Virus record (IMG/VR): IMGVR_UViG_2529293142_000021
Coordinates: 1-41,055 of that record
Length of the DNA stretch: 41,055 bases
Source: a virus
Lineage: Duplodnaviria > Heunggongvirae > Uroviricota > Caudoviricetes
Direction: 5' to 3' (one strand)
Below are positions 697-37,142 of this stretch, one piece after another (positions within the stretch are counted from its first letter, which is position 1; each line of letters starts with the position of its first letter). The notes beneath the pieces were generated by a model that ran no database searches, was not told where the DNA came from, and was given only the letters and a program-made list of their open reading frames with translations. The position numbers and the translations under genes are program-made.

Positions 697-706
697 TAAG
701 TTAGCT

Positions 707-738
707 GTTAGCCAAACATGTCGACCTGTTTGGCTAAC
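707..738. terminator. perfect 12-bp inverted repeat between convergent genes
   Basis: GTTAGCCAAACA tgtcgacc TGTTTGGCTAAC between the lipoprotein stop (696) and the int stop (740); no strong T-run, so it could instead be a protein-binding site. Confidence 0.4.
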
Positions 739-739
739 T

Positions 740-1867
740 TTAAACTGATACTTTAATCCAGTCCTTTCCGCGATCATCGTGGTATCGGTCCGTTTGCCTT
801 TGCGATTTGTGCCCCAGCAATTCTTTAGTATCAATACCCTGATCGCGGTAGAGTCGTTCTGCTAGTGATCTTTGTTCATGAAATGTGGCTGGAGTGCCGT
901 CGCCCCAGTCAAGTGCAGCCTGGTCGCGCGCCTTGCTAAAATTCATCGTTAGCGTGTTAGCCTTCACCTGTGCCCCGCGTTCCGCTTGCGAAGTTGCGCG
1001 AAAAAAATGCACGAGGTAAGGGCTGACGGCATAATCACGGCAGCGGGCGACAACTTCGCGCAAACTCCAATTGATTGCATTACAACGGAGCGCCAGTGGG
1101 ATTGCGACCTTACTCCCTGTTTTTTCCTGCACTACATGCAGATGGTCATCCCAAATATCAGTAAATTTCATTCTTGATATATCGCCTAATCGCTGACCTG
1201 TCACGACAGCAAGTAGCATGGCGTTGCCGAGGTATTTGTGAGTGGCGTCGGCAATATCAAAAATCTTCTGCCATTCTTCCAGGTTCAGGCGTTGCCGGGT
1301 AATTCTGCGCCGAGGCTGTTTAGTTGCCAGTGCAGGGTTGTGCCCTGGCGGAACCTCGCCAGCGTGTTGAGCCTCTTTGAAAACGTCAATGAGCACAGAG
1401 CGGATAACCTGCGCCATTCTGGGCTGGCCCGCAGAAAGATATTGGTCCAGAATCTGCGCTATGTCCCGAACCGTGACATCTGTTATTAACCTCATGCCAG
1501 CGGCCTCACGTAATAGATTCACCGGCTTAAGTTTTTGTTTGTGCGTATTGACCTTAATATCATCGATCTTTAAACGCTCGTCTTGTATTTTCCAGTATCG
1601 GTCCAGCCAGGTGTTAACAGTAATAGCGCCGCCTTTGCTGGTGGAAATGAGGTCTGTAATCGCCTGGACTTGCCTGGCGTGCTGTTCAGCGATCCGCCTG
1701 TTCGCCTCAATTGCGATTTCCGTAGCGACCGTTTCATCAGTGCCGAGTGCATGAAATTTGCCGGTAATCGGGTGCTTGTATCGCCAATAAATTTTTTTAG
1801 ATTTCCGGCTATACAGAGGGTACAGGTTAGGGATTTTTACGTTGTTTTTACGTGGTCTGGCAGCCAT
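740..1867 (-). CDS. int: tyrosine recombinase, phage integrase
   Basis: 375-aa ORF; C-terminal LLGHKS...TDRY tyrosine-recombinase signature; overlaps the xis-like gene as in lambda; same length as I recall for e14 IntE. Confidence 0.9.
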   Translation of the reverse strand: MAARPRKNNVKIPNLYPLYSRKSKKIYWRYKHPITGKFHALGTDETVATEIAIEANRRIAEQHARQVQAITDLISTSKGGAITVNTWLDRYWKIQDERLKIDDIKVNTHKQKLKPVNLLREAAGMRLITDVTVRDIAQILDQYLSAGQPRMAQVIRSVLIDVFKEAQHAGEVPPGHNPALATKQPRRRITRQRLNLEEWQKIFDIADATHKYLGNAMLLAVVTGQRLGDISRMKFTDIWDDHLHVVQEKTGSKVAIPLALRCNAINWSLREVVARCRDYAVSPYLVHFFRATSQAERGAQVKANTLTMNFSKARDQAALDWGDGTPATFHEQRSLAERLYRDQGIDTKELLGHKSQRQTDRYHDDRGKDWIKVSV

Positions 1868-2093
1868 CGTTTAAAATCCTCTGTAACATTATCGGGTCTG
1901 ATTTTCTAATCACTGGCTGGGCTATGCTGCCAGTAATTTCGGCATCCTCCCTAACTCTCCAATATTTCCCCTCTTTTCTGGCTGGTGGATTAAACATGCT
2001 TTGCTTTGCGTACCGGCGCAACGTGTCCAGGCTTGGGGGATTGCTCCGGTACTTGTCTGCACGCCATTCCTCAAGAGTTAACATTTGGATCAT
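1848..2093 (-). CDS. xis: excisionase, lambda Xis-like
   Basis: MLTLEEWRADKYRSNPPSLDTLRRYAKQSMFNPPARKEGKYWRV parallels lambda Xis as I recall it (MYLTLQEWNARQRRPRSLETVRRW...). Start chosen at an internal Met; the ORF extends to 2117. Confidence 0.75.
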   Translation of the reverse strand: MIQMLTLEEWRADKYRSNPPSLDTLRRYAKQSMFNPPARKEGKYWRVREDAEITGSIAQPVIRKSDPIMLQRILNDGCQTT

Positions 2094-2134
2094 GGTTTTT
2101 TGCTCCAGACCGCCCACGAACGGGCGGGACGTTA

Positions 2135-2365
2135 TTATTGCTGATACTGTTTTAACAGAGCTTCTACGCTCCCCACGATACTGCTAACCAGTTCATCGCG
2201 ATCCCGCGCCAGTGTGTCGCGCTCTCGCTCCAGTCGTTTGCAGCGTTCTACCAGAGCTACGGCAGTTACAGGTAATAAATTAATATCAGTCACGCTGCCG
2301 TGCATTATTACAGCCAGGCGATTGAGCATGAGCCGATCCTCGCTTTCTGTTTCCAGAATTACCAT
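2135..2365 (-). CDS. hypothetical early-left protein
   Basis: 76-aa ORF co-oriented with int/xis; no motif recognised. Confidence 0.45.
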   Translation of the reverse strand: MVILETESEDRLMLNRLAVIMHGSVTDINLLPVTAVALVERCKRLERERDTLARDRDELVSSIVGSVEALLKQYQQ

Positions 2366-2384
2366 TCACTATTCCTCGTTTAAA

Positions 2385-2600
2385 TTAACGCTCTATAAAC
2401 CGCCCGTTTAATACTCCAATTGTCCAGACAAATCGAATAAACGGAATTCCGAGCGGTTTTATTTTCTCGTAATGTTTAGCTAATATTGGGCGGCTAACGT
2501 CATCAAATTTGGGTTTTGGTTCCCGCCTGACTGCCGCTTTTAATTCCTCGTTACATTGACGCGCTACAGCTCGTAACGCGTTTTCCTGATCCTGAGTCAT
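2385..2600 (-). CDS. hypothetical early-left protein
   Basis: 71-aa ORF in the early-left operon; no motif recognised. Confidence 0.4.
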   Translation of the reverse strand: MTQDQENALRAVARQCNEELKAAVRREPKPKFDDVSRPILAKHYEKIKPLGIPFIRFVWTIGVLNGRFIER

Positions 2601-2689
2601 TAGTCATTACACGGATAGTAATAATAGTCAGGGTCGCAATCGATGCATATTTTAGACTGACCGTAATAAAGCGCAAAAACCATTTTTTT

Positions 2690-3415
2690 TCAGCGCGATT
2701 TAATTAAATTGGTACTTACAATGTGCTGAACATGTCTTTCGTCAATTTTGGCGCTATAAACTTCATACACCTGGTGACCATCAATTGTTTCACCCTCCAG
2801 AGCGCGCATGCTGATATTGTTATCGAGGCGATATTGACTGCGCAGGCCGTGAATTCGTGATTCAGGATCTGGCGATTTATCAAAATATAAGCTTTTATAG
2901 TCATGGCTTAACATTGAATATTCGCTGTCAATCAGTCGTATGTCTGGGCGTTCCCAGCCATTCTCTGCCGCCTGTTCTACGTTAGCATCAATAAAGGCGT
3001 CTAAAAATTCGCTTAATTTAATAACCGGTGGTAACAGCGATTCGTCCATGACTTCTTTAAGCATTTTCTCGGCCTTGACTATCATTGAATCAGCAACACC
3101 GCTTCCGGCGAACGTTTCGCGCAGGCGTTGTGTGATCATGTCGTTGTATCGCCCCAGGTCGATGACATTTTCCATATTGCCTGGCAGGGCTGCGCGGAAC
3201 GCCTCTTTAGTGGATTTTGAAAAATCACTGTAATTAGAGAAAACATCATTAACGATACCGTTAACGCACGATTCGATTTTGGAGTCGATGATTTGCAGCA
3301 TTTTTGGGCTAGTTGAAAACGCAGCAATACGCCCCGCTAATACCTCGCCAATACTCTGACGTGCTAAAATATTAATATCGGCATCATTCAGTTGGTTTTT
3401 ATTTTGTTCGTCCAT
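2690..3415 (-). CDS. hypothetical protein, early-left accessory
   Basis: 241-aa ORF, somewhat AT-rich, between the xis region and the immunity region; no recognisable catalytic motif. Confidence 0.6.
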   Translation of the reverse strand: MDEQNKNQLNDADINILARQSIGEVLAGRIAAFSTSPKMLQIIDSKIESCVNGIVNDVFSNYSDFSKSTKEAFRAALPGNMENVIDLGRYNDMITQRLRETFAGSGVADSMIVKAEKMLKEVMDESLLPPVIKLSEFLDAFIDANVEQAAENGWERPDIRLIDSEYSMLSHDYKSLYFDKSPDPESRIHGLRSQYRLDNNISMRALEGETIDGHQVYEVYSAKIDERHVQHIVSTNLIKSR

Positions 3416-6873: not shown

Positions 6874-7091
6874 GCGCCGCGAATTTACCCGCCTGCCCGG
6901 AGTGCGGAAACAGACCTGAATACGCATTCAAAATTGACTACCAGGGCTGGCACCGTGGCGGGCTGAAATGCCCCTACGACCACCACCGCGTATCACTCGA
7001 CAGCCCGGCGGGTACGCGCAAAAACGCAGAGGAAAGGCTGGCCCCACAGTGGTGTGAGCTGGTCGCAAAAATACAGGGAGAGACAGAATGA
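6870..7091 (+). CDS. small Cys-rich zinc-ribbon protein
   Basis: 73 aa with CPECG...CPYDHH...WC; start overlaps the previous stop. Confidence 0.4.
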   Translation: MSAANLPACPECGNRPEYAFKIDYQGWHRGGLKCPYDHHRVSLDSPAGTRKNAEERLAPQWCELVAKIQGETE

Positions 7092-8407
7092 GCGACGCAG
7101 CGATGATCATTGCGCCAACAGATATTCGCGAGATGGTGCGTGAGGTAGAGACGGCTTATTACCGGTATCTCGAAGAATTCCGCATCCCGGACGATCACAA
7201 AATCGTTGTGAATTTCTCCGCAGGAAAAGACAGCACTACAACAGCGACCATTGCGCATCACCTGTTCGGCGACCGTGTTAAAAATGTTATGGCGGATACT
7301 GATAACGAGCATGAATTAACTGTCGATTTTGCTCGTAATGTCCATCATCAAATCGGTTGTAAACCTGTTCAAATTGTTAAGCGCATTTACACCGAGGCGG
7401 AGTTTGAGCGCCGTCGCCAGTCTCTCAAAGACCGCTGGCCTAAACGCCAGGCAATTAGAATGGGGGCATATCGAGGTGTAATCATGCCATCGTTGGCGCG
7501 GGCAGATACCAAATTTGGTCAGGCATGGTTACGCACCGCTGAGCGCTGGGGGATTGAGTTTGAGACACCTCTGGAGGCCGCTATTTCAGTGATGCATCCG
7601 AGCGGAAACAGCTTCCTGGATGCTGCGTTATTGCATGGCAAATTTCCAATGCTGAGAGACCGTTTTTGTACTGACGAACTGAAAATTCAGATCGCTTTTG
7701 ACGCTGCGATAAAACCACTTTTGGATGATGGAGAGGTCGTCGTTCAGTGGTCTGGCGTTCGCGCAGATGAGTCTGACAAGCGCGCCGGTTATTCGAGATT
7801 TGCGCGTGACGAGCGTGATCCAGATTTCCTCTATAACTTCCTGCCTATTCATAAATGGACAGCGGCAGATGTTTTTGCGTTGCATAAATATTTCGGTATT
7901 AAACCAAATCCTCTGTACGTGCAGGGTGCGTCCCGTGTCGGTTGCATGAACTGCGTGTTGAGCACCAAAGAGGAAATTTCTGAGACGGCTGCACGCTGGC
8001 CTGAGCATATCGAAAAACACCATGCATGGGAGAAGAAAGTACGCCTGGCATCACGCTGGGTGCATTGGATGAGTGTCGGAACGGAAAGTCAGGCATGGAT
8101 GCGGTCACAGTTGGGATTTCGCATCGAAGCCTGGATGGGAGAGGATGAATTTACCGGAGAGGAAATTATGCGGAGCAGGAAATATCCAATAAACCTCGGT
8201 ACGGATATCAAACTATACGGCTTAGAGCCAGACATTCAGCGCATTGAGTGGTCAGGATTCTACGGGCCGCGCGGGAATATGGGTGCGCCGTCAGCGATTG
8301 ATGTTGTTGAGTGGGCGAAAACCGGGCGCGGCGGAAAGGTTTATGATCTGGTGAAGGCCAGCATGAACACTGCCGTGTGCTCTTCACGTTACGGATTATG
8401 CGAATAG
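7088..8407 (+). CDS. PAPS reductase-like PP-loop protein
   Basis: 439-aa ORF with PP-loop motif FSAGKDS near the N-terminus, as in the PAPS reductase / DndC-like family. Confidence 0.75.
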   Translation: MSDAAMIIAPTDIREMVREVETAYYRYLEEFRIPDDHKIVVNFSAGKDSTTTATIAHHLFGDRVKNVMADTDNEHELTVDFARNVHHQIGCKPVQIVKRIYTEAEFERRRQSLKDRWPKRQAIRMGAYRGVIMPSLARADTKFGQAWLRTAERWGIEFETPLEAAISVMHPSGNSFLDAALLHGKFPMLRDRFCTDELKIQIAFDAAIKPLLDDGEVVVQWSGVRADESDKRAGYSRFARDERDPDFLYNFLPIHKWTAADVFALHKYFGIKPNPLYVQGASRVGCMNCVLSTKEEISETAARWPEHIEKHHAWEKKVRLASRWVHWMSVGTESQAWMRSQLGFRIEAWMGEDEFTGEEIMRSRKYPINLGTDIKLYGLEPDIQRIEWSGFYGPRGNMGAPSAIDVVEWAKTGRGGKVYDLVKASMNTAVCSSRYGLCE

Positions 8408-10001: not shown

Positions 10002-10265
10002 CAATAATCACCCACCGGGGCTATATTCACCGAACGCCAGCAAAATCTGGCGTCGGGATTGGTCTCCCGGATATCTACTCAACGCATACCGCGTTAAGCG
10101 GTTTTTTATGCGTAAAGCACGGCTACACCCGCGAGTTATGGTGGGCTGTGTGAGGGCTTCTTAGGAAGCGCCGGGTTTGAGTAGCCGGTAAGACCAACCT
10201 TGCACAGTTCACCACCAGTCGATTGGTCTCGACGGTGGTGATGGTTAACCCACCGAGGTGACGCT

Positions 10266-12300: not shown

Positions 12301-12659
12301 TGGCAAAATATTCAATCACCCCACTGGGTAAACCCCGCATGACCCGTGCTGACAAATGGAAACAGCGCCCGCCGGTGCTGCGTTACCGCGTGTTTTGTGA
12401 TGAGGTCCGCTTAAGCGGCATTACGCTGCCCGAGAACGGCGCACACGTTGTATTTGTTATGCCTATGCCAGCGAGCTGGAGCCAGAAAAAACGCGCCAGC
12501 ATGAACGGTGCGGCCCACCAGCAAAAACCGGATATTGATAACCTCACTAAATCGCTGTTAGACGCCCTGTTTGATGACGATTCTCATATTTGGGATGTCC
12601 GGGCGTCGAAAATATGGGGCTATGAGGGCGCGATCGTGGTGCAGGAAGGTGCGGCATGA
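12300..12659 (+). CDS. rusA: Holliday junction resolvase RusA-like
   Basis: 119 aa; acidic motif PDIDNLTKSLLDALFDD characteristic of RusA family; typical position upstream of Q. Confidence 0.8.
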   Translation: MAKYSITPLGKPRMTRADKWKQRPPVLRYRVFCDEVRLSGITLPENGAHVVFVMPMPASWSQKKRASMNGAAHQQKPDIDNLTKSLLDALFDDDSHIWDVRASKIWGYEGAIVVQEGAA

Positions 12660-14563
12660 AATACGGTTCCGTTTGCAGCGGTATTGAGGCCGCGAGTGTG
12701 GCGTGGGAGTCCCTCGGCTGGCAGCCTGCATGGTTCGCAGAGATTGAGCCGTTCCCCGCCGCTGTGCTGGCGCATCACTGGCCGCAGGTCAAAAACCTTG
12801 GCGATATGACGAAAATCGCCGCCGGTGTCCTCGCTGATCAAATCGAGGCACCAGACGTGCTGGTGGGCGGCACTCCCTGCCAGGCATTCAGCGTTGCCGG
12901 ATTGCGCAATGGACTGGCCGACGAACGCGGACAATTGACCCTTTCTTACGTGGAATTAGCAAATGCAATCGATGACAAGCGCCGCCAGCGCGGTGAACGG
13001 GAATCAATCATCGTCTGGGAAAATGTCCCCGGCGTGCTCAACAGCAAAGACAACGCGTTCGGATGTTTTCTGGCTGGGCTTGCCGGAGAAAGCAGTGCGT
13101 TGCAGCCACCAGGGGGAAAATGGACGCTCGCAGGTTGTGTGCGTGGACCCGCGCGAAATATTGCCTGGCGAGTGCTCGACGCTCAATTTTTCGGAGTGGC
13201 ACAACGACGCCGCCGTGTGTTCGTTATCGCAAGTGCTAGAGACGATATCGATCCCGCAAAAATACTTTTTGAGTCCGACGGCGTGCGCCGGGATACTCCG
13301 CCGCGCAGAGAGTCGCAAACGGCAGTTGCCGCTCTTACTGCGCACGGCGTTGGAGCGTGTGGCGCAGACGACAACCAGGCGCAGGCAGGACATCTAATCC
13401 CTGAGATCAGCGCATATCGCATGACCGCATTCGGCGAGTATGCTGATGATGAAACTGCATCGACAGTTAAAGCGAGAGATTACAAAGATGCGACCGATCT
13501 GGCAGTTATGACGGTCCATGGCACACAGGATCCAGACGTTAACATCGAATTAGCGCACACGCTGGGGCGGAATAATGGGCAGGAAAATGCCTGCATAGCA
13601 TTCAGCTATAAAGATCACGGCCAAGATGCAGGATATGAAATAGCGCCTACTTTGCGGGCGGGGAATTGCGATACAGGGCGGGGTAACAGCGGGCAACCGC
13701 CAGCGGTCGCCAAGGCAATGCTCGTACGCCGTCTCACTCCGCGTGAGTGTGAGCGCCTCCAGGGATTCCCGGACGACCACACAAAAATACCCTGGCGCAA
13801 CAAACTGACTGAGGACTGTCCGGACGGGGCGCGATACAAAGCGATCGGCAATAGCATGGCAGTGCCGGTGATGCGCTGGATCGGCGAGCAAATTAAACGA
13901 GCAACAGCAACGCAGGAAATTATCTGTAATCCCTACGTCGCGGCGGTTGATAAATTACGCGCGCAGAATGAACACTATTTGCGCGAAGTTGGCGATCAGT
14001 GGCGCACTCCTGATCTGCTGTTTTGGGGTATTAATGCAATATTTGGCCCACTGGTCCTCGATCTGTTTACTGACGGCGATAATTCAAAATGTCCGAATTA
14101 CTACACGGCCGAACAAAACGCGCTAACGCAAGACTGGTCCGCGCGACTCGCGGATCTGGGCGGCGCTGCGTTCGCTAATCCGCCGTACAGTCGATCGCAG
14201 TATCACGACGGACAGGCGATCACCGGCATGGCCCACATCATGAGCCACGCCCGCTCAATGCGTGACGCTGGTGGGCGTTTTGTTTTCCTGCTGAAAGCCG
14301 CGCCATCGGAAACCTGGTGGCCGGAGGACGCGGATCACGTAACGTTTATTCGCGGTCGTGTCGGTTTTGATTTGCCAGCCTGGTTTAATCCTGCTGATGA
14401 AAAACAGGCACCCTCCAGCGCAAATTTTGCGGCGGCAATTGTTGTGCTGGATAAAAACTGGCGCGGGGGCCGGTTCGGATATATCCACCGCACAGAGCTG
14501 GAAGCGAAAGGCCGCGCCGCCCTGGCGCTGGCACGGTATGCAGTCAATGAGGCCATATTTTGA
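12656..14563 (+). CDS. fused C5-cytosine and N6-adenine DNA methyltransferase
   Basis: N-terminal half has C5-MTase motifs: GSVCSGIEAAS (I), GGTPCQAFSVAG (IV), ENVPG (VI), QRRRRVF (VIII), GNSMAVPV (X). C-terminal half has a phage Dam-like region with the NPPY catalytic motif (FANPPYSRS). No cognate endonuclease nearby. Confidence 0.85.
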   Translation: MKYGSVCSGIEAASVAWESLGWQPAWFAEIEPFPAAVLAHHWPQVKNLGDMTKIAAGVLADQIEAPDVLVGGTPCQAFSVAGLRNGLADERGQLTLSYVELANAIDDKRRQRGERESIIVWENVPGVLNSKDNAFGCFLAGLAGESSALQPPGGKWTLAGCVRGPARNIAWRVLDAQFFGVAQRRRRVFVIASARDDIDPAKILFESDGVRRDTPPRRESQTAVAALTAHGVGACGADDNQAQAGHLIPEISAYRMTAFGEYADDETASTVKARDYKDATDLAVMTVHGTQDPDVNIELAHTLGRNNGQENACIAFSYKDHGQDAGYEIAPTLRAGNCDTGRGNSGQPPAVAKAMLVRRLTPRECERLQGFPDDHTKIPWRNKLTEDCPDGARYKAIGNSMAVPVMRWIGEQIKRATATQEIICNPYVAAVDKLRAQNEHYLREVGDQWRTPDLLFWGINAIFGPLVLDLFTDGDNSKCPNYYTAEQNALTQDWSARLADLGGAAFANPPYSRSQYHDGQAITGMAHIMSHARSMRDAGGRFVFLLKAAPSETWWPEDADHVTFIRGRVGFDLPAWFNPADEKQAPSSANFAAAIVVLDKNWRGGRFGYIHRTELEAKGRAALALARYAVNEAIF

Positions 14564-15240
14564 AATTAGAATCACTCCCAAAATTTTACGCACCGAAATC
14601 GCCAAATCTCGGCGCAACAGCGCCCGCCACCGGCGGCGACCGCATGACGATTACTGACGTAATGACGGCTCAGGGGTTCGTTCAGTCAAAAACGCCGCTG
14701 GGGTTCGCGTTATTTCTCGCGAAAGCAGGCATTCAGACGCCTGAGCCAGCGATTGAACTGCTGGCAAAAATCGCGTGGGAACTGGCACCGGCGTGCCGCG
14801 CTGTTAACGTGCTGCCAGGCAACCAGCGCGCTGCCGTGTGTGACGTGCTGGCAACGATGGCCTACCAGGACTACTCCCGCAGCGCCGCCAGCGTGCGCCC
14901 GTGTGACTGCTGCGCGGGTGACGGGTTTATAACTGCTGAGGTGTTTACAATGAAAATGGCAGGCGTGGTACATCGGCAGGTACGAGAGATTGAGCGCATA
15001 TTGTGCGCTAATTGTAAGGGGAAGCGAGTAATTAGCAATTCGTGCCGTTGCCACGGTAAGGGGAGGGTGTTGGATGCCTCTGGCGAGGTCCTTTTGTGGA
15101 AAGAGTGCGACCGATGTAGGGGGCGAGGATACTCTCGTTTGAAATTTTCCGCCGTACTGGTTGCGTTGCAGCGGGTGTGGCCGGAGCTAAAAAAACCACT
15201 GCTTACAATGAAGTGCAGCCATTTTTTGAAATACTGGTGA
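14560..15240 (+). CDS. late antiterminator Q-like
   Basis: Cys-rich C-terminus (CANCKGK...CRCHGKG...CDRCRGRG), last gene before the late promoter/lysis region. ORF track start is TTG at 14560; real start may be the ATG at 14644. Confidence 0.65.
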   Translation: MKLESLPKFYAPKSPNLGATAPATGGDRMTITDVMTAQGFVQSKTPLGFALFLAKAGIQTPEPAIELLAKIAWELAPACRAVNVLPGNQRAAVCDVLATMAYQDYSRSAASVRPCDCCAGDGFITAEVFTMKMAGVVHRQVREIERILCANCKGKRVISNSCRCHGKGRVLDASGEVLLWKECDRCRGRGYSRLKFSAVLVALQRVWPELKKPLLTMKCSHFLKYW

Positions 15241-15395
15241 CGCATTGCCACAGAGAAGAGGCTGCAGCCGAACAGCAATTACAGGTGGTTACGCGCTGAT
15301 TATTGCTAAAAAAAGGTGCTAAAAATTACATTGTTGCTATTCATGGAAAAATAGGATAAATTTCCTCCAACGATAGGCGTTGTATGTTCGTTCCT

Positions 15396-18306: not shown

Positions 18307-18825
18307 TTGTTCACCATCATGGATCAGGAACTCAAAAATTCACGGCTCAATATTAATCAGATTGCCAGCCTGACTGATTTGCACCGGCAAACAGTTGCCG
18401 CGCGGTTAAGCGGGGTGCCGCTGGCACCCGGCAGTAATCCGAAATTAAAACTATATTCCGTCGTTGATATTCTGACGACGCTATTAACCCGCACTACCGA
18501 CCCCGCAAAAATTAACGTTGATGAACTGCTACCCACGGATCGCAAAGCCTGGTTTCAGTCCGAGCGCGAACGGCTTAAATTCGAGATCGAAACAGCGACA
18601 TTAATACCCGCCAGCGACGTTACGCGAGAGTTTGCGACGATGGCAAAAGCGGTGGTCCAGGTTCTCGAAACACTGCCTGATATTTTGGAACGTGATTGCG
18701 GGTTGCAGCCAGCGGCGGTGGCGCGAGTACAAACAATTATTGACGACCTGCGCGATCAGATTGCGCAGCGCGTTGAGCAGGCGGAAACAGAAACAGAGCA
18801 GGAGGACGCGCCGCAGGAGGATTAA
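18307..18825 (+). CDS. terminase small subunit, Nu1-like
   Basis: N-terminal HTH-like segment and acidic C-terminus; immediately upstream of the large terminase; the ~300-bp non-coding stretch before it is the likely cos region. Confidence 0.6.
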   Translation: MFTIMDQELKNSRLNINQIASLTDLHRQTVAARLSGVPLAPGSNPKLKLYSVVDILTTLLTRTTDPAKINVDELLPTDRKAWFQSERERLKFEIETATLIPASDVTREFATMAKAVVQVLETLPDILERDCGLQPAAVARVQTIIDDLRDQIAQRVEQAETETEQEDAPQED

Positions 18826-20902
18826 TGCAGCAACAGGCAACGGCGCGAGGGGCGCGAAAAAATATAGCAGCAATGATCCGCGCGCCGCGCAGGATGCCGG
18901 TTTCTGAGGCGGTCGCAAAATATATGCGCGTACCAATGGGCGCGGGCAACTCCGTGCCGTGGGATCCGCTGGTGGCACCCTACGTTATTGAGCCAATGAA
19001 TTGCCTCACGTCGCGTGAATACGACGCCGTTGTTTTTGTCGGTCCGGCTCGAACGGGTAAAACAATTGGCCTGATTGACGGCTGGATTGTCTACAACGTG
19101 GTGTGTGATCCGTCGGATATGCTGATTATTCAGATGACTGAGGAAAAAGCGCGCGAGCACTCTAAAAAACGCCTAGCGCGTACATTCCGTGCCAGCCCGG
19201 AAGTTGCGTCGCGGCTGAGTCCAAACCGCAACGATAACAACGTTTATGACCGTACATTCCTGGCGGGCAATTATTTAAAAATTGGCTGGCCGTCAATCAA
19301 TATCATGTCGTCGTCGGATTTTAAATGCGCCGCGCTGACTGATTACGACCGAATGCCGGAGAATATCGACGGTGAGGGTGACGGGTTTACGCTGACGTCA
19401 AAACGAACGACCACCTTTATGTCCAGCGGCATGACGTTGGTTGAGAGTTCGCCGGGCCGCGATATTACCGACGTGAAATACCGCAAAAATTCACCGCACG
19501 AGGCACCGCCCTGCACGGGTATTTTATCCCTGTTTAACCGTGGTGATCGGCGTTGTTGGTACTGGCAGTGTCCGCACTGCCGCGAATATTTTCGCCCCGT
19601 TGGCGACACCGTTACCGGGTATCAGGATATCGCAGATCCGGTGCTCGCCAGCGAGGCTGCATACGTTGAATGCCCGCACTGCCAGGGCAAAATAACCCCC
19701 GATCAGAAACGCGAACTAAACGCTGGCGGCGCATGGCTGCGCGACGGAGAAACTATCGATGCAGACGGCAATCGGGGTGGAGAGCCGCGCCGCTCGCGCA
19801 TCGCGTCATTCTGGATGGAAGGGCCGGCGGCGGCATATCAGACGCTGACACAGCTCGTTTATAAACGTCTCACCGCTGAGCAGGAATACGAATTAACTGG
19901 CAGCGAGGAAACGTTAAAAGCGGTTATTAACACCGACTGGGGCCAGCCGTATTTGCCGCGCGCGGCGTCAGAGCAACGCCGCAGCGAGGAATTAATGTCC
20001 CGCGCCGAGGACTACGGCGATCGGGTTGTACCGCCTGAGGTTCGTTTTTTGCTGGCGTCAGTCGATGTGCAGGCGGGGAAAAAACGCCGTTTTGTTGCGC
20101 AGGTTGTTGGCTACGGGCAGCACGGCGAGCGCTGGTTAATCGACCGTTTTAATATTGAATATTCGCTGCGCTGCGACGAAAACGGCGAGGCGCGTCGCGT
20201 TGATCCTGGCGGCTATCCAGAGGACTGGGATCTGCTAATAGATGAGGTGCTGGAAAAATCCTATCAGCTACAGTCCGACCCGGTGCGCCGGATGCCGATT
20301 TTATGTCTGGCGGTTGATAGTGGCGGCGAGGACGGCGTCACGGATAACGCGTATAAGTTCTGGCGTCGTTGCCGCCGCGACGGCTACGGGAAGCGCGTGT
20401 ATTTAATCAAGGGCGACAGCACGACACGCGCGAAATTAATAACTAAATCGTTTCCTGATAACACGAACCGCAGCGACCGCAAAGCTGGGCGCGTGGTGAC
20501 GTACCGATCTACTTGCTGCAAACCGACAGACTCAAAGACGCAATCCACAACAATCTAAAACGAGACACTCCCGGCCCTGGTTTTATTCATTTTCCCGCCT
20601 GGATCGGTGAGTGGTTTTACGACGAACTGTTATATGAAACGCGTGGATCTGACGGTAAATGGCGCAAGCCAGGCCACGGCGCTAATGAGGCGTTGGACCT
20701 GTTTTGCTATTGCCACACGCTGGCAATATTGCGCGGCTATGAGCGCGTAAAAGACTGGAGTAAGCCGCCAGCCTGGGCGGTCCCGCAGGCAGCGAATATT
20801 CAAATCGCTGCGCAACCGGCGGCACCGCCAGAGCCTGATTTAAAAACTACAGAAACAACGGGAAAGCCGTTTACGCCAGCCAGCGTGAGCGGCTTTTTTT
20901 AA
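18825..20902 (+). CDS. terminase large subunit, lambda gpA family, apparent frameshift
   Basis: Walker A GPARTGKT; Cys-rich CPHC...CPHC region; the C-terminal conserved part (NEALDL...) continues in another frame from about 20460-20520, so the gene is split into 18825-20558 and 20513-20902. Confidence 0.8.
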
Positions 20903-25401: not shown

Positions 25402-25434
25402 CGGGCTTGCCCGCTTTTTTTTGAGATAAATAAA

Positions 25435-25833
25435 ATGGCAAATCCACGCAGTAACGCGCAAATGTTTGACATAGACATGAGCGCATTAACAGGGTTGCGC
25501 GATGCCGTGGAGGCAACAGAGCATCAGATGATTATGGCGTATAACCGCGCCCTGAATCGCACAGCTAAACACATGCACCGTGTTTCAGTCAGTATGATTA
25601 TTGATGCCCTCGGCTTAAAAAGCAGAAAAGTCGCTAATAAACGCACACAGCAATTTATTAAACGCCGCGATTATTCAAAAGAGGGCGCGGGGGACCTTAG
25701 TTCTGTTAAATTATGGTATGGTCTGGATGATTTTAGAATACATAATTTACGTGGGACAATGCGCCAGCCGAGAACCGGGAAACAGGAACGAGATCCGGAA
25801 ACCGGGCAATTCTTGAAAAAAAGAAAACAGTAG
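25435..25833 (+). CDS. hypothetical virion protein
   Basis: 132 aa; ends just after an A7 run (25816-25822). The downstream frame is open across this run, so this and the next ORF may be one gene. Confidence 0.45.
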   Translation: MANPRSNAQMFDIDMSALTGLRDAVEATEHQMIMAYNRALNRTAKHMHRVSVSMIIDALGLKSRKVANKRTQQFIKRRDYSKEGAGDLSSVKLWYGLDDFRIHNLRGTMRQPRTGKQERDPETGQFLKKRKQ

Positions 25834-25874
25834 CGGGAGCGTCGTTTACGCCTAAATCATCCTCACTATCCGCT

Positions 25875-26117
25875 ATGGGATGGCCTGATTCATTTGTTGC
25901 GACCCGTTTTGGATATCGCAGTATATGGAAACAGGTAAACGGTGGCCGCAATATTGAGGAAATGAGGATTCCGGTGCATGAGGCGCTGGAGGATGCTATT
26001 GATGATTATATATATCAAAATATTGGTCCTGTATTTATGGCATATTATGAACAGGATTTGCGCGGACGCGTCGCTGGTAGCGTCCATGTCAACGCCAAAA
26101 CAGGTAAACGGCTATGA
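25875..26117 (+). CDS. hypothetical virion protein, possibly C-terminal part of the previous gene
   Basis: 80-aa ORF with no evident RBS; its frame is open upstream to 25746. Confidence 0.35.
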   Translation: MGWPDSFVATRFGYRSIWKQVNGGRNIEEMRIPVHEALEDAIDDYIYQNIGPVFMAYYEQDLRGRVAGSVHVNAKTGKRL

Positions 26118-29446: not shown

Positions 29447-30562
29447 AAATAAAATTTACGCTGTGTTAACTGACCGTGGCGCGCAGTTAGAAGCCGCCGC
29501 GCTGGCGTCAGGCGTTCCAGTGGTGCTGAACAAATTTGTTATCGGCGACGCGAACGGAAACGATGACGTAACACCGGATCCGGCGCGTACTGCATTAGTT
29601 CACGAGACGTATCGCGGGGATATTAAATCCGCAGAAAATAGCGGTAACCAGGTTATTTTTACGCTATACGTACCACCGGAAACTGGCGGTTATACTATCC
29701 GTGAGGTGGGAATATTAACCGATAAAGGCGAACTGTACTCAGTTGCACGTTCACCGGATATTTTAAAACCTACGGACAGTAACGGCGCACTGATTTCAAT
29801 CACGTATAAATACACCCTCGCGGTGTCCAGCACATCTACAGTTAATGTTGTGGTATACGACAACTACGTAACTCCCGAGGTAGCTGACAAAAAATATTTG
29901 CAGATAAGCAAAAATTTATCTGAAATTGCCGCTAATGGTGGTTCTGCTCAGCAGGCTGCGCGGAAAAATATTGGTATAGATGGGGACGTTGCATATAGAG
30001 ATAAGGGTAATACATTTACAACTCAAAACACCTTTAAAGACGACGTTTTTTTTGAAGACATTTTGATTTCTAAAAAACAAATAAACATAAATAAACCAGA
30101 TACCAACTTAACATTATTTTCACTTGCGGGCTGGTCAGATGTGAACGGTGATTATTTAGAAGTGTCGACGCGGGGGAAAATAATCAAAACGTTTTTTATA
30201 GATTACGCGGGGTTCACTATGATGGTCTGGTGTTACTGTGCGGCGGGCAGACGTATAAATATTGGAATGAGGGAAATCTTAAACCGGTTAAAACGATTAA
30301 CGGGAAGTCGCCAGATGCTAACGGGAACGTCGCAATAACCGTAAGCAGCTCGGGGATACAGAACGTTCAACTTGGCGCAGAGGTTGCCCACACACCGGCG
30401 GGTAATGAGGTTACGTGGGACTTTAAATGTCCGACCGGCTGTGTTCTTACTGGGATATATGTTCAGGAAACCGGCGACAGCTCAGCTGATAATATCGGCG
30501 GTGTTTATTATAAACCGATCCAAAAATACATTAATAATGTATGGACTACGATTTCCGGATGA
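29439..30562 (+). CDS. tail fiber protein, apparent frameshift
   Basis: N-terminal conserved tail-fiber region (MAENKIYAVLTDRGAQLEAA...); receptor-binding C-terminus (KTINGKSPDANGNVAIT...) continues in another frame from about 30172-30180 (G5/A4 run); split into 29439-30338 and 30230-30562. Confidence 0.7.
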
Positions 30563-30565
30563 GTT

Positions 30566-31143
30566 ATGCAAAATTTAAAATCATTTAAGCTTGTAAAACC
30601 TAAAACGAAATTACTTAAACTTAGCGAGTCTGACGGACAAAATATTTTATATCTTCAGTCCGAAGACGGCATGGATTGGTATGAATGCCAGTCACTGTAT
30701 CGCGATGACACAGTAAAAATAATGTACGACAAAGAAAACATTATTCGATCAGTTGTTGATCGCCCGGTCCCGGAGCGAGGAAATACCTATTCTGTGAGCA
30801 TGTTTTTCCCGATTGATATGAGTGTTGCGGAGGTTGAGTTGAGCACCTATCCTGCTGAGCTAACTCTCGACGGATCGTGGAAATTTGTTGACGGTGATGT
30901 ATATCAAGATGAGCAAATTGTAAATGAGCGTATTTACAAAGAAAACTCCAAAAAATTAATGAATTAGTCCGAGAGGCTCAGTCAGCAATTCTAAATTTAC
31001 AAACAGCCATAGAGATTGATATGTCATCAGATGGTGATGAGGAAAAGCTAATAGAATGGCGACGCTACCTGTGCGAGCTGAATAAAATAACAGCCACGGA
31101 TCTAAGTCAGTCCCCACTTAACACTCCTTTACGACCAGCATAA
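30566..31143 (+). CDS. tail fiber assembly chaperone, apparent frameshift
   Basis: ORF 30566-30967 ends just after an A6 run (30950-30955); the conserved Tfa-like C-terminus (...KLIEWRRYLCELNKI...) continues in another frame to the stop at 31141-31143. Confidence 0.6.
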
Positions 31144-33207: not shown

Positions 33208-33492
33208 ATGGAATCATTATTAGACAGCATGACGGTAACATTATCGCGTCCGTTCGAAATTAACGGCGTAACCGTTGAAACAATCACAGTGCGCGAGCCT
33301 AAGCTCCGCGATCGCATCTTGTTTAGCAAAGATAAGGGCGATGCAGAGGAAAAAACTGCGCGTATGCTGGCACGGCTGGCTAATCTTAACATTGAGGATA
33401 TTTACTCCCTTCCTTCCTGTGATTATATGAAAATGGAGGAAGCATTTAACGAACTGGTAAAGATCCCGACCGACCGGAAGCAGATATTATAA
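33208..33492 (+). CDS. tail assembly chaperone, gpE-like
   Basis: Start at MESLLDS with AGGA RBS; small gene between tube and tape-measure genes. Confidence 0.5.
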   Translation: MESLLDSMTVTLSRPFEINGVTVETITVREPKLRDRILFSKDKGDAEEKTARMLARLANLNIEDIYSLPSCDYMKMEEAFNELVKIPTDRKQIL

Positions 33493-33597
33493 TCCTGCTC
33501 CCGTATATAGCTAAAAAGCTGGCTATTCCTCCCGATACGCAACTAAATATGCCGTATCGGGTTTTTAATTTCTACGTAACAGAGCTAATGAAAAAAG

Positions 33598-35225
33598 ATG
33601 GCTGCTACACAGGAATTTAAAACAAAAGTTGTATTTGGGGGCCGCATAGACCCCTCTTTTAAGCGCAGCGCCGACGAACTGGACGGCGCTATAAAGCAGA
33701 CGGGTAACACCGTTTCAACGTTAACACGTAAACAGGAGAAATTAAAAGACCAGATCAAAAAAACCGAGCTTGCGGGCAAAAGTACTAAAAGTCTGGTTCA
33801 CGAATATCAAAAAGTCGGGCGTGAAATTAATATCGTTACGAAAGATCTTGAGCAATTAAATAAACAGTTAGCAAAAAAACAGCGAATTGAAAACATTGGC
33901 AGCAAAATAAAGGGCGCTGCGAAATGGGGCGGTAGAGCTGCGCTCGGCACCGCAAAAGCCGTCGGCAGCGGCGTTAAATGGGGCGCGCTTGGCGGGATTG
34001 GGCTAATTGGTGCCGCCGGAGCTGGTGCCGCCGCAATGAATGCTGAAACCGCCGAAAAATTAGGGCTGGCCCGGTCCTACGGTGTAGGAATCGAAAAATA
34101 TGCGGCGTGGGATAACGTCGGTAAAATGGCTGGCCTCAACGGTGAAAACGTTGGTGATTTATCCGAGGAATTAACAAATAAATTGGGTGAGGTCGGCAAC
34201 GAAAAAAACCTTAACCCGATGCTGTTCCAGATCGGTCTTACCAAAAAAAGGATGCAGAGCTGGGATCGGGAAAAACAATTTAACGAGGTAATGAGTCGTC
34301 TTTCGAAAATGAAAGACGAAAAACAGGCCGCAAGTCTCGCCGACCAATTAATGGGCGGTGAGGCAAATAAAATAATGACGTATATGAGGATTACTGGCAA
34401 AACATGGGAGCAGACCATGGAAGACGCCAAAAAATCCAATTTATTAACGCAGGAGGGCGCGGAGGGAGCCGCCCGCGCGCATTTCTCATTAACTAATTTA
34501 TGGGGTTCTATTTCCTCGGGATTTGCCGACACGCTCGGGAAAATTGGTGGGAAACTGGCCCCGACATTTGACTCGATGCGCGAGGGATTTACATCATGGT
34601 TTAAAGACAATCAAGGGACTATTGTTAATACTGTAAAAGAGTGGGTGAAACCGGAGAACATGAAAAAGCTGTGGGATGGCATAGTTAATTTCGGCGAGGG
34701 CTGCGTAAAATTCGGTAAAATAATATGGGTGGTGGTAAAAAAATTAGAGTGGTTAATTCCGGACGAAAAGACCGAAGAAGAAGAAAAAGTATATAAAGAA
34801 GAATACGCAAAAGCGTATCAAGAATTCATGGACTCGGGCGGAAAATATTCACCGAACGCTGGCCTGGCTGCTGATAATGTTGCACAAGCTAAAGCAAAAG
34901 AAGCCGTCGATAATATGCGTCATCCGGAGCGTAAAAAAATGCCGAGGCGATCATGTCGCTGGCTAATCCATTTGTTGAGGCACAAAAAGCGGCGGCGGCC
35001 CCTGATTCACTGCAAAATGCAACTATAAATATGGATGCGCTAAAACAAGCCGTGGCGCAACCAGCGCCGCAACAAAATAATAAAATTGAGGTTAATATTA
35101 TGGCGGCTGGTGACCCTCAATCTATCCAGGCGGCGGCGGCGTCAGGGGTATTAGACGGAATAAGACAGGCCGCGCCATCTGGCGGTCGCGGATCAATGAT
35201 GGACAGACCAGTGGCGGCGGGGTAA
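33598..35225 (+). CDS. tail tape measure protein, apparent frameshift
   Basis: Coiled-coil N-terminus and Gly/Ala-rich segments typical of tape measure proteins; reading frame changes at an A7 run (34933-34939); split into 33598-35028 and 34953-35225. Confidence 0.7.
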
Positions 35226-35229: not shown

Positions 35230-35640
35230 ATGAACGACGCACAGGATATAATGCTCGGCCTGGGTGATTTTATTTTTGCTATATCAACAGTCGCCTACAA
35301 TAAATTACAGCGTAGTGATTCATGGCGCTGGGCTGAACAAACCAGATTCAGGAAAAATGACGCGTTGCAAATGACGGGCCGCCCGAACCCAACAATCACT
35401 ATAGACGGTAAAATAAATGCCTTATTTTTAGACGGTTGCGGGATTGGGTTATTATCAGATTTGCGCGCCCTGGGTAATGAGGGCAACCCCCAGCAGCTGG
35501 TGCTGGGGACTGGTAAAGTCATGGGCTATTGGGTTATTAAAGACCTGAATGAAACGCAAAATAGTTTCTTTATGGGCGGCACCCCAAAAACGCAGGATTT
35601 TACGTTAACCCTGCAATATTATGGCGCTTCATTAGACTGA
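35230..35640 (+). CDS. tail protein U-like
   Basis: 136-aa ORF after the tape measure gene, as P2 U. Confidence 0.7.
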   Translation: MNDAQDIMLGLGDFIFAISTVAYNKLQRSDSWRWAEQTRFRKNDALQMTGRPNPTITIDGKINALFLDGCGIGLLSDLRALGNEGNPQQLVLGTGKVMGYWVIKDLNETQNSFFMGGTPKTQDFTLTLQYYGASLD

Positions 35641-35861
35641 ATATCTTTTGGCTTTTTATCGCCGAAAGCGGCCCATAATATTAATATAATCCACATCAGG
35701 AATATCCAGCCAAAAAGAACATTTAATATTACTACCATGGTGCAGCTTTTATGCCCTCTCATTAACGCAATGATTAGCGGAATAACATATAAAATAATGG
35801 ACGCCAATGGGTTAGCCATGAGCCAGATATACAGGGCTACAATCCATGTGAAAATTTCCAT
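35619..35861 (-). CDS. small inner-membrane protein, Imm-like
   Basis: 80 aa from MEIFTWIVALYIWLMANPLASIILYVIPLIIALMRGHKSCTMVVILNVLFGWIFLMWIILILWAAFGDKK; two predicted TM helices; AT-rich; antisense to all surrounding tail genes. The resemblance to T4 Imm-type proteins is from memory. Confidence 0.5.
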   Translation of the reverse strand: MEIFTWIVALYIWLMANPLASIILYVIPLIIALMRGHKSCTMVVILNVLFGWIFLMWIILILWAAFGDKKPKDIQSNEAP

Positions 35862-36098: not shown

Positions 36099-37142
36099 AT
36101 GGGTGATTACACTAACACTGGCGTTGAGGCGTGGAAGCCTAATTTTTACATAGCTGCGGATGATGTAAATATTACAGAAAAAATCAGAAAAGGGCTTATT
36201 AATATCACCCTTACCGACTACGGCGGATCGAGTAAACAAACCGACGAAATACGCGTCGCTATCGTATCAGAAACGCTGAAAATCCCCGCGCGCGGCGTAA
36301 AAATAACGCTGGGGCTGGGGTTCGGTAATCAGATTATTGATAAAGGCGTTTACGTCGTTGATGGTGCCAGCAGTGGTGGCGAACCGCGCGTTGTTGATTT
36401 CACCGCAAAAGCCGCCCCCATGAACGCTGCAAAAGGCGCGAAAACGGTACAGAGCAAAAAAACGCGGTCCTGGATTGATCAAACCGTGGGCGATATTGTC
36501 GCAAAAATTGCGAGCGACAACGGTCTGAATCCACGCGTTTCAACCCGGTTTGCAGATACAAAAATCGAGCATATCGACCAGATCGGCGAGTCTGATATGC
36601 ATTTTATGTCACGCCTGGCAACCCGGTTTGATGCGGTCAGTAAGCCCGCTGGCGGATACTGGATATTTTTACCGCGCGGTAAAGGTGAATCAGTCAGCGG
36701 CGCACCGCTGCAACACTATACGTTAAAACGCGCTGGTAACTCGAGCTGGGGTTACTCAAGAAACGGGCAGAGCGGTGACAGCGGCGGCGGCGGTGAAAAC
36801 CCCGAACCCACATATCTGATTAAATATCACGACACGGCGACCGGGCAGATCAAAGAACTGCGGACCGGCAGCGGCGGCGATCCGGTTATCGAGTGGCCCG
36901 CGGTCGAGCCGTCGCTCGACGCAGCAAAAGAAGCGGCACCAGGGCTGAAAGGCGGTGCCGCTAAAAAAGAATTTTCAATGACATACTCATGCCCGGCAAC
37001 GCTGGATTTAATCGCGCTGACGGCGGAATGCAAGGTAACGACAGAGGGTTTTGGCAGCGAGGAAGATCGGGAGTGGACGATTAACACGCTATCCCTGACG
37101 CTGGCTGAGAACGGTTTTTCTGTTCGTATATCTATGGAGTGA
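36099..37142 (+). CDS. tail protein D-like
   Basis: 347-aa ORF with Gly-rich loop, at the end of the tail operon. Confidence 0.75.
   Translation: MGDYTNTGVEAWKPNFYIAADDVNITEKIRKGLINITLTDYGGSSKQTDEIRVAIVSETLKIPARGVKITLGLGFGNQIIDKGVYVVDGASSGGEPRVVDFTAKAAPMNAAKGAKTVQSKKTRSWIDQTVGDIVAKIASDNGLNPRVSTRFADTKIEHIDQIGESDMHFMSRLATRFDAVSKPAGGYWIFLPRGKGESVSGAPLQHYTLKRAGNSSWGYSRNGQSGDSGGGGENPEPTYLIKYHDTATGQIKELRTGSGGDPVIEWPAVEPSLDAAKEAAPGLKGGAAKKEFSMTYSCPATLDLIALTAECKVTTEGFGSEEDREWTINTLSLTLAENGFSVRISME

What the first reader, a model, noticed from the sequence alone, without database searches (positions are those of the whole stretch)
18825..20902. Large terminase interrupted by a 1-base frameshift; first of four such frameshifts in virion genes
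Seen: the terminase reading frame ends at 20558 but its conserved C-terminal region (NEALDL...) is in a frame shifted by one base, with the switch between about 20460 and 20520. Three further structural genes show the same kind of one-base shift. Inference: either recent inactivation of the prophage or sequencing/assembly indel errors; the clustering at homopolymers in the other three favours the latter but the sequence alone cannot decide.
Basis: partly seen in the sequence, partly recalled or inferred. Interest (0 to 1): 0.5.

Follow-up and report, generated by a model that had tools for sequence, protein, structure and literature searches.

The report
Dead terminase gene in decaying prophage
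The phage DNA-packaging gene is truly broken by a one-base deletion shared by about a hundred related E. coli assemblies, so this is an ordinary decaying prophage, while several other "frameshifts" in this window are probably 454 homopolymer sequencing errors.

Summary
A lambda gpA-type large terminase (18825-20902) is split by a one-base deletion between 20488 and 20489. The closest intact relative (98% aa, 692 aa) reads GCT GGT GCG where the window reads GCT GG- GCG. This is not a sequencing error: the site is not a homopolymer, and the identical 577-aa truncated product occurs on about 100 contigs from independent E. coli assemblies.

The tail-fibre shift (30172-30180) is also lineage-wide and real. 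The tail-fibre-assembly shift (A6, 30950-30955) is probably an artefact, because two other assemblies of the same strain have A7. The tape-measure shift (A7, 34933-34939) is real in three other isolates but probably an artefact here.

The window is near-identical to E. coli STEC strain 031/H.I.8 (AFDY), which was sequenced by 454 Titanium. It under- of 5 homopolymers of 8 nt or more.

Selection analysis fits a recent inactivation followed by decay. The terL branch dN/dS is about 0.025, while within-lineage dN/dS is about 0.75, with nonsense mutations and strain-private indels.

Verdict: an ordinary defective prophage at the icd/e14 site plus assembly noise. Low novelty.

The parts
18307..18825 (+). 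Small terminase subunit (DUF1441 / phrog_141), intact, immediately upstream of terL
   Evidence: Pfam DUF1441 E=1.7e-46; phrog_141 'terminase small subunit' E=3.8e-65
18825..20558 (+). terL 5' reading frame: 554 native codons (ATPase domain plus the first ~2/3 of the nuclease domain), then 23 out-of-frame codons and a stop
   Evidence: Pfam GpA_ATPase 1.8e-70 and GpA_nuclease profile positions 1-200 of 294; tblastn homology ends at aa 554
20487..20489 (+). Site of the 1-nt deletion. The third base of a Gly codon is missing (GGT in the sister phage, GGC in the Salmonella outgroup). Not a homopolymer
   Evidence: Single gap in the 2079-nt alignment; outgroup sequence; identical in L003-L007 and L018
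20489..20902 (+). terL 3' part (137 codons plus stop) in the -1 frame: the rest of the nuclease domain with the conserved NEALD motif, and the C-terminal tail
   Evidence: Pfam GpA_nuclease positions 208-294; inserting one base gives a 692-aa protein 98% identical to P0001
29439..30562 (+). P2-H-like tail fibre gene split into a 299-aa ORF and a 110-aa ORF by a 1-nt loss in a G run (G5A4 at 30172-30180). Real and lineage-wide
   Evidence: Intact relative L020 has G7A3; the 299-aa product is on 87+ contigs; no locus differs at this site
30566..31143 (+). Tail fibre assembly gene (Caudo_TAP) split at A6 (30950-30955). Probably an artefact in this window
   Evidence: A7 and a 192-aa product in L008-L011, L018, L023-29 and L031; A6 only in the window and in the subclade carrying 31944T
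33598..35225 (+). Tape-measure-position gene (phrog_3654) split at A7 (34933-34939). A8 and 542 aa in most strains; ambiguous in this window
   Evidence: homopolymer audit
25435..26117 (+). Tail completion/Neck1 gene (phrog_27) split at A7 (25816-25822).
   Evidence: A8 and 227 aa in all 16 other loci that cover it; phrog_27
14560..15299 (+). Q-type antiterminator with its C-terminus shifted at A7 (15189-15195). The locus comparison covered this site only in the window and four other assemblies, all of which have A8
   Evidence: A8 and 246 aa in L003, L004, L005 and L007
39332..41055 (.). E. coli chromosome to the right of the prophage: icd 3' remnant, ymgL, iraM, ycgX. This is the e14 attachment region
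   Evidence: 99.5-99.9% megablast matches in E. coli complete genomes, starting at window ~39332

Best explanation
The window holds most of an E. coli prophage integrated at the icd (e14) site. It has a gpA-type terminase, a lambda-family portal, a ClpP-capsid fusion head module and a P2-like contractile tail. Its large-terminase gene lost one nucleotide, the third base of Gly555, in a recent ancestor. The product is therefore 554 native residues plus 23 junk residues. It lacks the last ~30% of the nuclease domain and the C-terminal tail, which in lambda gpA docks on the portal, so the element cannot cut or package its DNA (inferred from lambda genetics). A second real lesion, a 1-nt loss in a G run, splits the tail fibre gene. 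Both lesions are fixed in a clonal E. coli lineage. In that lineage the prophage is inherited vertically and is now drifting, picking up nonsense mutations, private indels and an elevated dN/dS. On top of this real decay, this assembly under-calls long homopolymers. It is essentially identical to 454-sequenced strain 031/H.I.8 (AFDY). The under-calling most likely explains the tail-fibre-assembly frameshift, probably the tape-measure frameshift, and four further run shortenings. Shown: the lesion, its reproducibility, its polarity and the selection contrast. Inferred: loss of packaging function and the artefact status of individual runs.
For: Nature of the lesion:
- There is one gap in 2079 nt against the intact sister gene. 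The repaired protein is 692 aa, the same length as P0001-P0003, at 98% and 92% identity.
- The lost base was T or C, not part of a run.

Reproducibility:
- The exact 577-aa product is on 34 contigs. A 572-aa derivative is on 63 more. Both come from NCBI, ENA and Logan assemblies of different runs.
- All six loci that cover the site agree at the DNA level.
- No intact allele was found above 98% identity.

Selection:
- The terL branch leading to the window has 49 synonymous and 4 nonsynonymous changes (dN/dS ~0.025). This includes 11:2 in the severed 3' part read in its shifted frame.
- Within the lineage there are 13 synonymous and 32 nonsynonymous SNPs, two of them nonsense (dN/dS ~0.75). Fisher p=3e-11.

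Function:
- Lambda Aam42, which removes only the last 5 residues of gpA, abolishes prohead binding and gives a very low virus yield (PMC4856287).

Artefact layer:
- Window runs are one base shorter for 0 of 36 reference runs of 6 nt, 1 of 16 of 7 nt, 3 of 4 of 8 nt and 1 of 1 of 9 nt.
- The window equals AFDY02000004.1 over 13.4 kb except at the A6/A7 run.
- The window equals a Logan assembly of SRR057628 except at three homopolymers.
- AFDY was sequenced on 454 Titanium and assembled with Celera (PMC3491183).
Against: No reads were inspected, and the sequencing platforms of the comparison assemblies were not verified. Within-clone dN/dS is often elevated even for functional genes, because weakly deleterious mutations have not yet been purged, so 0.75 does not prove neutrality. 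Loss of function is inferred from lambda genetics and was not tested for this enzyme. The A7 tape-measure allele is real in at least three other isolates, so it could be real here too. That the window derives from strain 031/H.I.8 is inferred from near-identity and is not stated anywhere.
Confidence: 0.87

Rival explanations
1. The terminase frameshift is a sequencing or assembly indel error in this window, and the gene is intact in the cell.
For: The same assembly clearly carries homopolymer indel errors, and the source strain was sequenced on 454.
Against: The site is GG[T/C]G, not a homopolymer. The identical truncated protein is on ~100 contigs from independent samples and assemblers. Those assemblies resolve A8 and T9 runs that the window under-calls, yet agree with the window at 20488.
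Confidence: 0.02
2. The shift is decoded, by programmed -1 ribosomal frameshifting or by a functional two-piece terminase, so the phage is still packaging-competent.
For: The 3' part shows 11 synonymous and 2 nonsynonymous changes on the window branch in its own frame. One within-lineage SNP there is synonymous (20699).
Against: All ~120 best homologues are single ORFs of 691-707 aa, apart from one shorter 673-aa hit, and the only other split one is a variant of the same allele. The sister gene differs by exactly one extra base. There is no X XXY YYZ heptamer in the 20460-20558 overlap. The only start codon in the downstream frame, the TTG at 20513, lies after the conserved ARGDVPIY stretch, so a separately translated 3' piece would lack those residues. 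The 11:2 ratio is explained by the deletion being very recent. Lineage members carry further terL damage, a 15-bp deletion and an N-terminally truncated form.
Confidence: 0.03
3. The element is being domesticated, for example as an R-type tailocin or a source of superinfection immunity or other morons. Loss of the terminase would then be tolerated or favoured while tail and cargo genes are kept.
For: In most strains the sheath, tube, baseplate and tape-measure genes are intact. An Imm_superinfect gene sits in the tail cluster, and a second, intact tail fibre gene lies at 37139-38977.
Against: Head genes are as well preserved as tail genes, which fits recency rather than selective retention. 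The P2-type fibre is frameshifted in all members. Tail genes carry private frameshifts and nonsense mutations in various strains: sheath in L029, second fibre in L027, tail-fibre assembly in L012-14, L023 and L030. Polymorphism dN/dS is ~0.75.
Confidence: 0.05

Closest known systems
Bacteriophage lambda gpA (large terminase, Pfam GpA_ATPase + GpA_nuclease) and its Aam42 C-terminal truncation mutant
   Same: Same two-domain family. Same gene order: TerS, TerL, small head-tail adaptor, lambda-family portal. A C-terminal truncation is expected to abolish packaging, as in Aam42 (PMC4856287).
   Different: Here the truncation removes 138 residues rather than 5, including part of the nuclease domain. 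It arose by a natural 1-nt deletion in a prophage. Sequence relatedness to lambda gpA itself was assessed only through the Pfam family.
Intact sister prophage terminase P0001 (E. coli, 692 aa; loci L015/L016) and Salmonella P0002/P0003
   Same: 98% and 92% amino-acid identity over the full length once one base is restored. Same flanking head genes.
   Different: They carry the extra base (GGT or GGC) and encode a continuous 692-aa protein. L015/L016 have a different early region and a different tail fibre.
Citrobacter phage Chris1, Hafnia phage yong2, Escherichia phage mEp460
   Same: These are the closest deposited phages for TerL, at 79%, 76% and 76% aa identity. Chris1 and yong2 also share a contractile-tail sheath, at 46% and 45%, so they have the same head/tail module combination.
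   Different: They are functional, isolated phages with intact terL. There is no DNA-level similarity detectable by megablast.
Cryptic prophage e14 of E. coli K-12 (icd-integrated defective prophage)
   Same: Same chromosomal attachment region: icd remnant, ymgL, iraM, ycgX to the right. Both are defective, vertically inherited prophages (the status of e14 is from general knowledge).
   Different: e14 is a ~15-kb remnant lacking most virion genes. This element is still near full length with only point lesions, so it is at a much earlier stage of decay. Sequence similarity to e14 was not tested.
454 pyrosequencing homopolymer-length errors
   Same: The window shows strictly length-dependent one-base shortening of A/T runs of 7-9 nt relative to other assemblies. 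The matching strain was sequenced on 454 Titanium.
   Different: This does not explain the terminase lesion (not a run) or the tail-fibre lesion (shared by all assemblies).

Membership tests
Lambda gpA-type large terminase | N-terminal GpA_ATPase domain | tested here: met
   PF05876 E=1.8e-70, residues 41-304, full profile
Lambda gpA-type large terminase | C-terminal GpA_nuclease domain in the same polypeptide | tested here: not met
   Profile positions 1-200 are in ORF 18825-20558 and positions 208-294 are in the -1 frame ORF 20513-20902. The domain is complete only after one base is restored. The locus is therefore a pseudogene of this family, not a functional member.
Lambda gpA-type large terminase | Gene neighbourhood: small terminase upstream; head-tail adaptor and lambda-family portal downstream | tested here: met
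   DUF1441/phrog_141, phrog_118, PF05136
Prophage pseudogene (real inactivating mutation) | A discrete lesion relative to a closely related intact gene | tested here: met
   One gap in 2079 nt against L015/L016
Prophage pseudogene (real inactivating mutation) | The lesion is reproduced in independent assemblies | tested here: met
   34 + 63 contigs from NCBI, ENA and Logan; 6 of 6 covering loci are identical at the site
Prophage pseudogene (real inactivating mutation) | Relaxed selection after the lesion | tested here: met
   Within-lineage 32 nonsynonymous to 13 synonymous, 2 nonsense, private indels; 4 to 49 before the lesion; p=3e-11. Caveat: within-clone dN/dS is inflated in general.
Prophage pseudogene (real inactivating mutation) | No packaging or particle production | not testable with these tools
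   Needs induction and plaque or particle assays
Programmed ribosomal frameshift (recoding) site | The frame change is conserved among homologues | tested here: not met
   Homologues are continuous ORFs of 691-707 aa, apart from one 673-aa hit
Programmed ribosomal frameshift (recoding) site | A slippery X XXY YYZ heptamer in the overlap | tested here: not met
   None in 20460-20558
Homopolymer sequencing artefact (flow chemistry) | The indel lies in a run of 6 or more identical bases | tested here: not met
   For the terminase, the context is GG[T/C]GCG. The feature is met for 30950, 34933, 25816, 15189, 25415 and 10102.
Homopolymer sequencing artefact (flow chemistry) | The error rate rises with run length and always shortens the run | tested here: met
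   0/36 (6 nt), 1/16 (7 nt), 3/4 (8 nt), 1/1 (9 nt), every time one base shorter in the window
Homopolymer sequencing artefact (flow chemistry) | The indel is absent from independent assemblies of the same or sister strains | tested here: inconclusive
   Met for 10102, 15189, 25415 (except L004) and 25816. Met for 30950 against the same-strain assemblies L009 and L018. Mixed for 34933: A7 also occurs in L008, L010 and L011, but on a conflicting SNP background at 38547. Not met for the terminase or the tail fibre.

The most novel reading that the evidence does not exclude
The A/T/G runs inside the tail genes may act as hypermutable contingency tracts. The genes involved are the tape measure (A8), tail-fibre assembly (A7), tail fibre (G6-7) and tail completion (A8). 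The same one-base slips recur independently in different strains: A6 in the tail-fibre assembly gene in the 31944T subclade, and A7 in the tape measure on two different 38547 backgrounds. That recurrence could switch tail production on and off, or be partly rescued by transcriptional slippage, in an element kept as a tailocin-like structure after the terminase was lost.
Probability: 0.04. Interest if true: 0.5.

Novelty: already known. Interest (0 to 1): 0.15.

Why it matters
The main value is for annotation and quality control. The prophage should be called defective on the strength of two real lesions, in the terminase and the tail fibre. At least four to six other indels in this window should be treated as 454 homopolymer under-calls, not biology. 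Otherwise the assembly overstates pseudogenisation, with six split genes against two real ones. The terL deletion is a clean, non-homoplasic marker for one E. coli lineage. The element is also a tidy example of the earliest stage of prophage decay, with a before/after contrast in selection. None of this would surprise a phage or genome specialist.

Tried and rejected
- Megablast of terL against deposited phages gave no hit. Against 5,426 complete E. coli genomes it found only two CRISPR-spacer matches and no homologous prophage.
- A PDB sequence search with the repaired TerL found no solved relative, so I did not pursue structure mapping of the lost segment.
- I ran exact-pattern scans for either allele (with or without the missing base) on this haplotype. 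IMG/VR, the GTDB species representatives and JGI metagenomes all gave zero matches. No intact ancestor on this haplotype was found.
- I considered programmed frameshifting and rejected it: there is no heptamer and the shift is not conserved.
- I considered that the tape-measure A7 allele is inherited from the clade of L008, L010 and L011. Support is weak, because the window carries 38547T while L008 and L010 carry C, and A8 strains occur on both backgrounds. This is a four-gamete conflict.
- The exact 226-aa Q product of the window is not in the protein collection. This is uninformative, because gene callers choose other start codons.

Full report
**1. What is at 18825-20902**

The ORF at 18825-20558 (577 aa) matches Pfam GpA_ATPase (E=1.8e-70). 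It also matches positions 1-200 of the 294-position GpA_nuclease profile. The ORF at 20513-20902, one base out of frame, matches positions 208-294 of the same profile. A small terminase (DUF1441/phrog_141) lies upstream. A head-tail adaptor, a lambda-family portal and a ClpP-capsid fusion lie downstream. tblastn against deposited phages gives 72-79% identity to intact terminases in the hits listed, including Citrobacter phage Chris1, mEp460 and Hafnia phage yong2. In every case the match stops at residue 554, which is window 20486.

**2. The exact lesion**

A database search with a conceptually repaired protein found an intact 692-aa E. coli protein at 98% identity (P0001). It also found Salmonella proteins at 92% identity (P0002, P0003), and all three read ...SDRK(A/S)GARGDVP....

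- The DNA of P0001 (L015/L016) is 96.5% identical to the window across the head genes.
- Within terL it differs by 117 substitutions and exactly one gap: GCT GGT GCG CGT against GCT GG- GCG CGT in the window.
- The Salmonella outgroup has GGC at that codon.
- The missing base was therefore T or C, between window 20488 and 20489, and it was not part of a homopolymer.
- The resulting product keeps 554 native residues, adds 23 out-of-frame residues and stops at 20558.
- The 137 remaining native codons (20489-20902) hold the conserved NEALD motif and the C-terminus.

**3. Real mutation or error?**

The exact 577-aa product is recorded on 34 contigs. A 572-aa derivative, with an extra in-frame 5-residue deletion and the same out-of-frame tail, is on 63 more. 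Both come from NCBI, ENA and Logan assemblies of unrelated runs. No source gives the product a name; one possible reason, which I did not check, is that annotation pipelines treat the locus as a pseudogene.

I fetched 22 loci of this prophage lineage. They are 99.91-99.99% identical to the window. All six that cover terL agree with the window at 20488. No full-length allele closer than 98% exists in the protein collection. A sequencing error at this site is therefore excluded for practical purposes.

**4. The other frameshifts, site by site**

- **Tail fibre, 30172-30180.** The window has G5A4, while an intact relative (L020) has G7A3. Every lineage locus has the window's version, and the 299-aa product is on 87+ contigs. 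This lesion is real and lineage-wide even though it lies in a run.
- **Tail-fibre assembly gene, 30950-30955.**
  - A6 occurs in the window and in a coherent subclade that also carries 31944T (L012-14, L030).
  - A7, giving an intact 192-aa protein, occurs in all other loci that cover the site.
  - The window lacks 31944T.
  - The two other assemblies of what is evidently the same strain (L009 = AFDY02000004.1 and L018 = Logan SRR057628) both have A7.
  - This frameshift is therefore probably an artefact here.
- **Tape measure, 34933-34939.**
  - A8, giving 542 aa, is indexed in 175 blocks and is seen in 13 fetched loci.
  - A7 occurs in the window, L009 and L018, which are the same strain. 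It also occurs in L008, L010 and L011.
  - L008 and L010 resolve other A8 and T9 runs correctly, so A7 is real in them.
  - However, they carry 38547C while the window carries 38547T, and A8 strains occur on both backgrounds.
  - The window's A7 is therefore either an independent slip or an artefact.
  - A7 at 25816-25822 splits a 227-aa tail-completion/Neck1 gene (phrog_27).
  - A7 at 15189-15195 shifts the C-terminus of the Q antiterminator.
  - T8 at 25415-25422 and T6 at 10102-10107 are intergenic.
  - At each of these four sites the window's run is one base shorter than in nearly all other assemblies that cover the site. The exceptions are the same-strain assembly L018, the homopolymer-error-prone fragment L019, and L004 at 25415-25422.

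**5. Why this assembly is suspect**

I audited homopolymer lengths against the other assemblies.

| Reference run length | Runs checked | One base shorter in the window |
|---|---|---|
| 6 nt | 36 | 0 |
| 7 nt | 16 | 1 |
| 8 nt | 4 | 3 |
| 9 nt | 1 | 1 |

- The window is identical to AFDY02000004.1 over 13.4 kb except at the A6/A7 run.
- It is identical to the Logan assembly of SRR057628 over 20.4 kb except at three homopolymers.
- It shares a private SNP (15875T) with the Logan assembly.
- AFDY is E. coli STEC strain 031/H.I.8. It was sequenced on 454 Titanium FLX and assembled with Celera (PMC3491183).
- Length-dependent under-calling is the expected error mode of that chemistry (general knowledge).

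**6. Host and element**

The right end of the window (39332-41055) is 99.5-99.9% identical to the E. coli region holding the icd remnant, ymgL, iraM and ycgX. This is the attachment region of cryptic prophage e14. A lambda-type integrase lies at 740-1867 on the minus strand. The tail module is P2-like, with baseplate V/W/J/I, fibre, sheath, tube, chaperone, gpU, gpX and gpD. The nearest isolated phages with the same head/tail combination are Chris1 and yong2, at 45-46% sheath identity.

**7. Timing and selection**

I polarised terL substitutions using the sister gene (L015) and the outgroup (L021).

- The branch leading to the window has 49 synonymous and 4 nonsynonymous changes (dN/dS ~0.025).
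- This includes 11 synonymous and 2 nonsynonymous in the severed 3' part when read in its own frame.
- The gene was therefore under strong constraint until shortly before the present.
- Among the 22 lineage loci, SNPs are 13 synonymous and 32 nonsynonymous (dN/dS ~0.75).
- These include W-to-stop in the decoration gene (24999, L026) and in the second fibre (38490, L027).
- There are also private indels: 29613 in L004, 26250 in L026, 31674 in L029, 36422 in L031, and the 15-bp terL deletion.
- The contrast is significant (Fisher p=3e-11).
- One caveat applies: very recent clonal polymorphism is always enriched for nonsynonymous changes.

**8. Mechanistic consequence (inferred)**

In lambda, TerL carries the translocation ATPase in its N-terminal domain and the endonuclease in its C-terminal domain, and its extreme C-terminus contacts the portal. 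The Aam42 mutant, which lacks only the last 5 residues, cannot bind proheads and gives a very low virus yield (PMC4856287). Losing 138 residues, including about 30% of the nuclease domain, should abolish both cos cleavage and prohead docking. With the fibre gene also broken, the prophage cannot make infectious particles. It can only be inherited vertically, which fits its fixed chromosomal position and the near-identical host flank.

**9. Rivals**

- Sequencing error at terL: rejected (section 3).
- Programmed frameshifting or a functional split enzyme: homologues are continuous ORFs. There is no slippery heptamer in the 20460-20558 overlap. Lineage members accumulate further terL damage.
- Domestication as a tailocin or cargo carrier: not excluded but unsupported. 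Head genes are as intact as tail genes, the P2-type fibre is broken in all members, and tail genes carry private knock-outs.

**10. Verdict**

It is an ordinary, recently inactivated prophage in an E. coli STEC-associated lineage. Much of the apparent cluster of frameshifts in this window is 454 homopolymer noise layered on two real lesions. Novelty is low. The practical lesson concerns annotation and assembly quality.

Noticed in passing
window 58-91, 700-733 and ~18998-19034: CRISPR arrays of E. coli complete genomes carry spacers that match this prophage. There are 100% 34-nt matches to 58-91 or 700-733 in 329 genomes, and a 97.4% match inside terL in 2 genomes. None of the 5,426 complete genomes carries the terL gene itself; only terL and window 1-2700 were searched.
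   Followed up: no
A7 instead of A8 splits a 227-aa tail-completion/Neck1 gene (phrog_27). It is seen only in the window, the same-strain Logan assembly and one error-prone fragment, so it is probably a 454 under-call.
   Followed up: yes
window 15189-15195 (gene 14560-15299): A7 instead of A8 shifts the C-terminal ~36 residues of the Q-type antiterminator (246 aa in other assemblies). Probably an artefact as well.
   Followed up: partly
window 33208-33600: The tail assembly chaperone ORF (Phage_TAC_7, 33208-33492) has an open -1 frame extension running to the tape-measure start. This is the one place in the module where a programmed E/E'-type frameshift is expected. No canonical X XXY YYZ heptamer lies in the overlap.
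   Followed up: partly
window 35619-35861 (- strand) and 37139-38977: A minus-strand Imm_superinfect-family gene is embedded in the tail cluster, which looks like a moron. A second, intact tail-fibre gene with a phage_tail_N domain follows gpD, so the element encodes two fibre systems.
   Followed up: no
window 39332-39530: The prophage/chromosome junction lies at the icd 3' remnant, the attachment region used by cryptic prophage e14 in K-12. The left end of the prophage lies outside the window.
   Followed up: partly
P0122 (terL, 63 contigs); L026 at window 24999; L027 at window 38490; L029 at 31674; L004 at 29613: Other strains of the lineage carry additional private lesions. These are a 15-bp in-frame deletion in terL, nonsense mutations in the decoration gene and the second fibre, and 1-nt deletions in the sheath and the fibre. 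This is evidence of ongoing decay.
   Followed up: partly
window 12656-14563 versus L015 3425-4066: The window carries a 635-aa DNA methylase fusion (C5 DNA_methylase + Dam). The intact sister prophage has only a 213-aa Dam at the same position, and its early region differs (86-92% identity, mosaic).
   Followed up: no
window 7088-8407: A 439-aa PAPS-reductase-domain protein is encoded in the early region. Its function in this phage was not examined.
   Followed up: no
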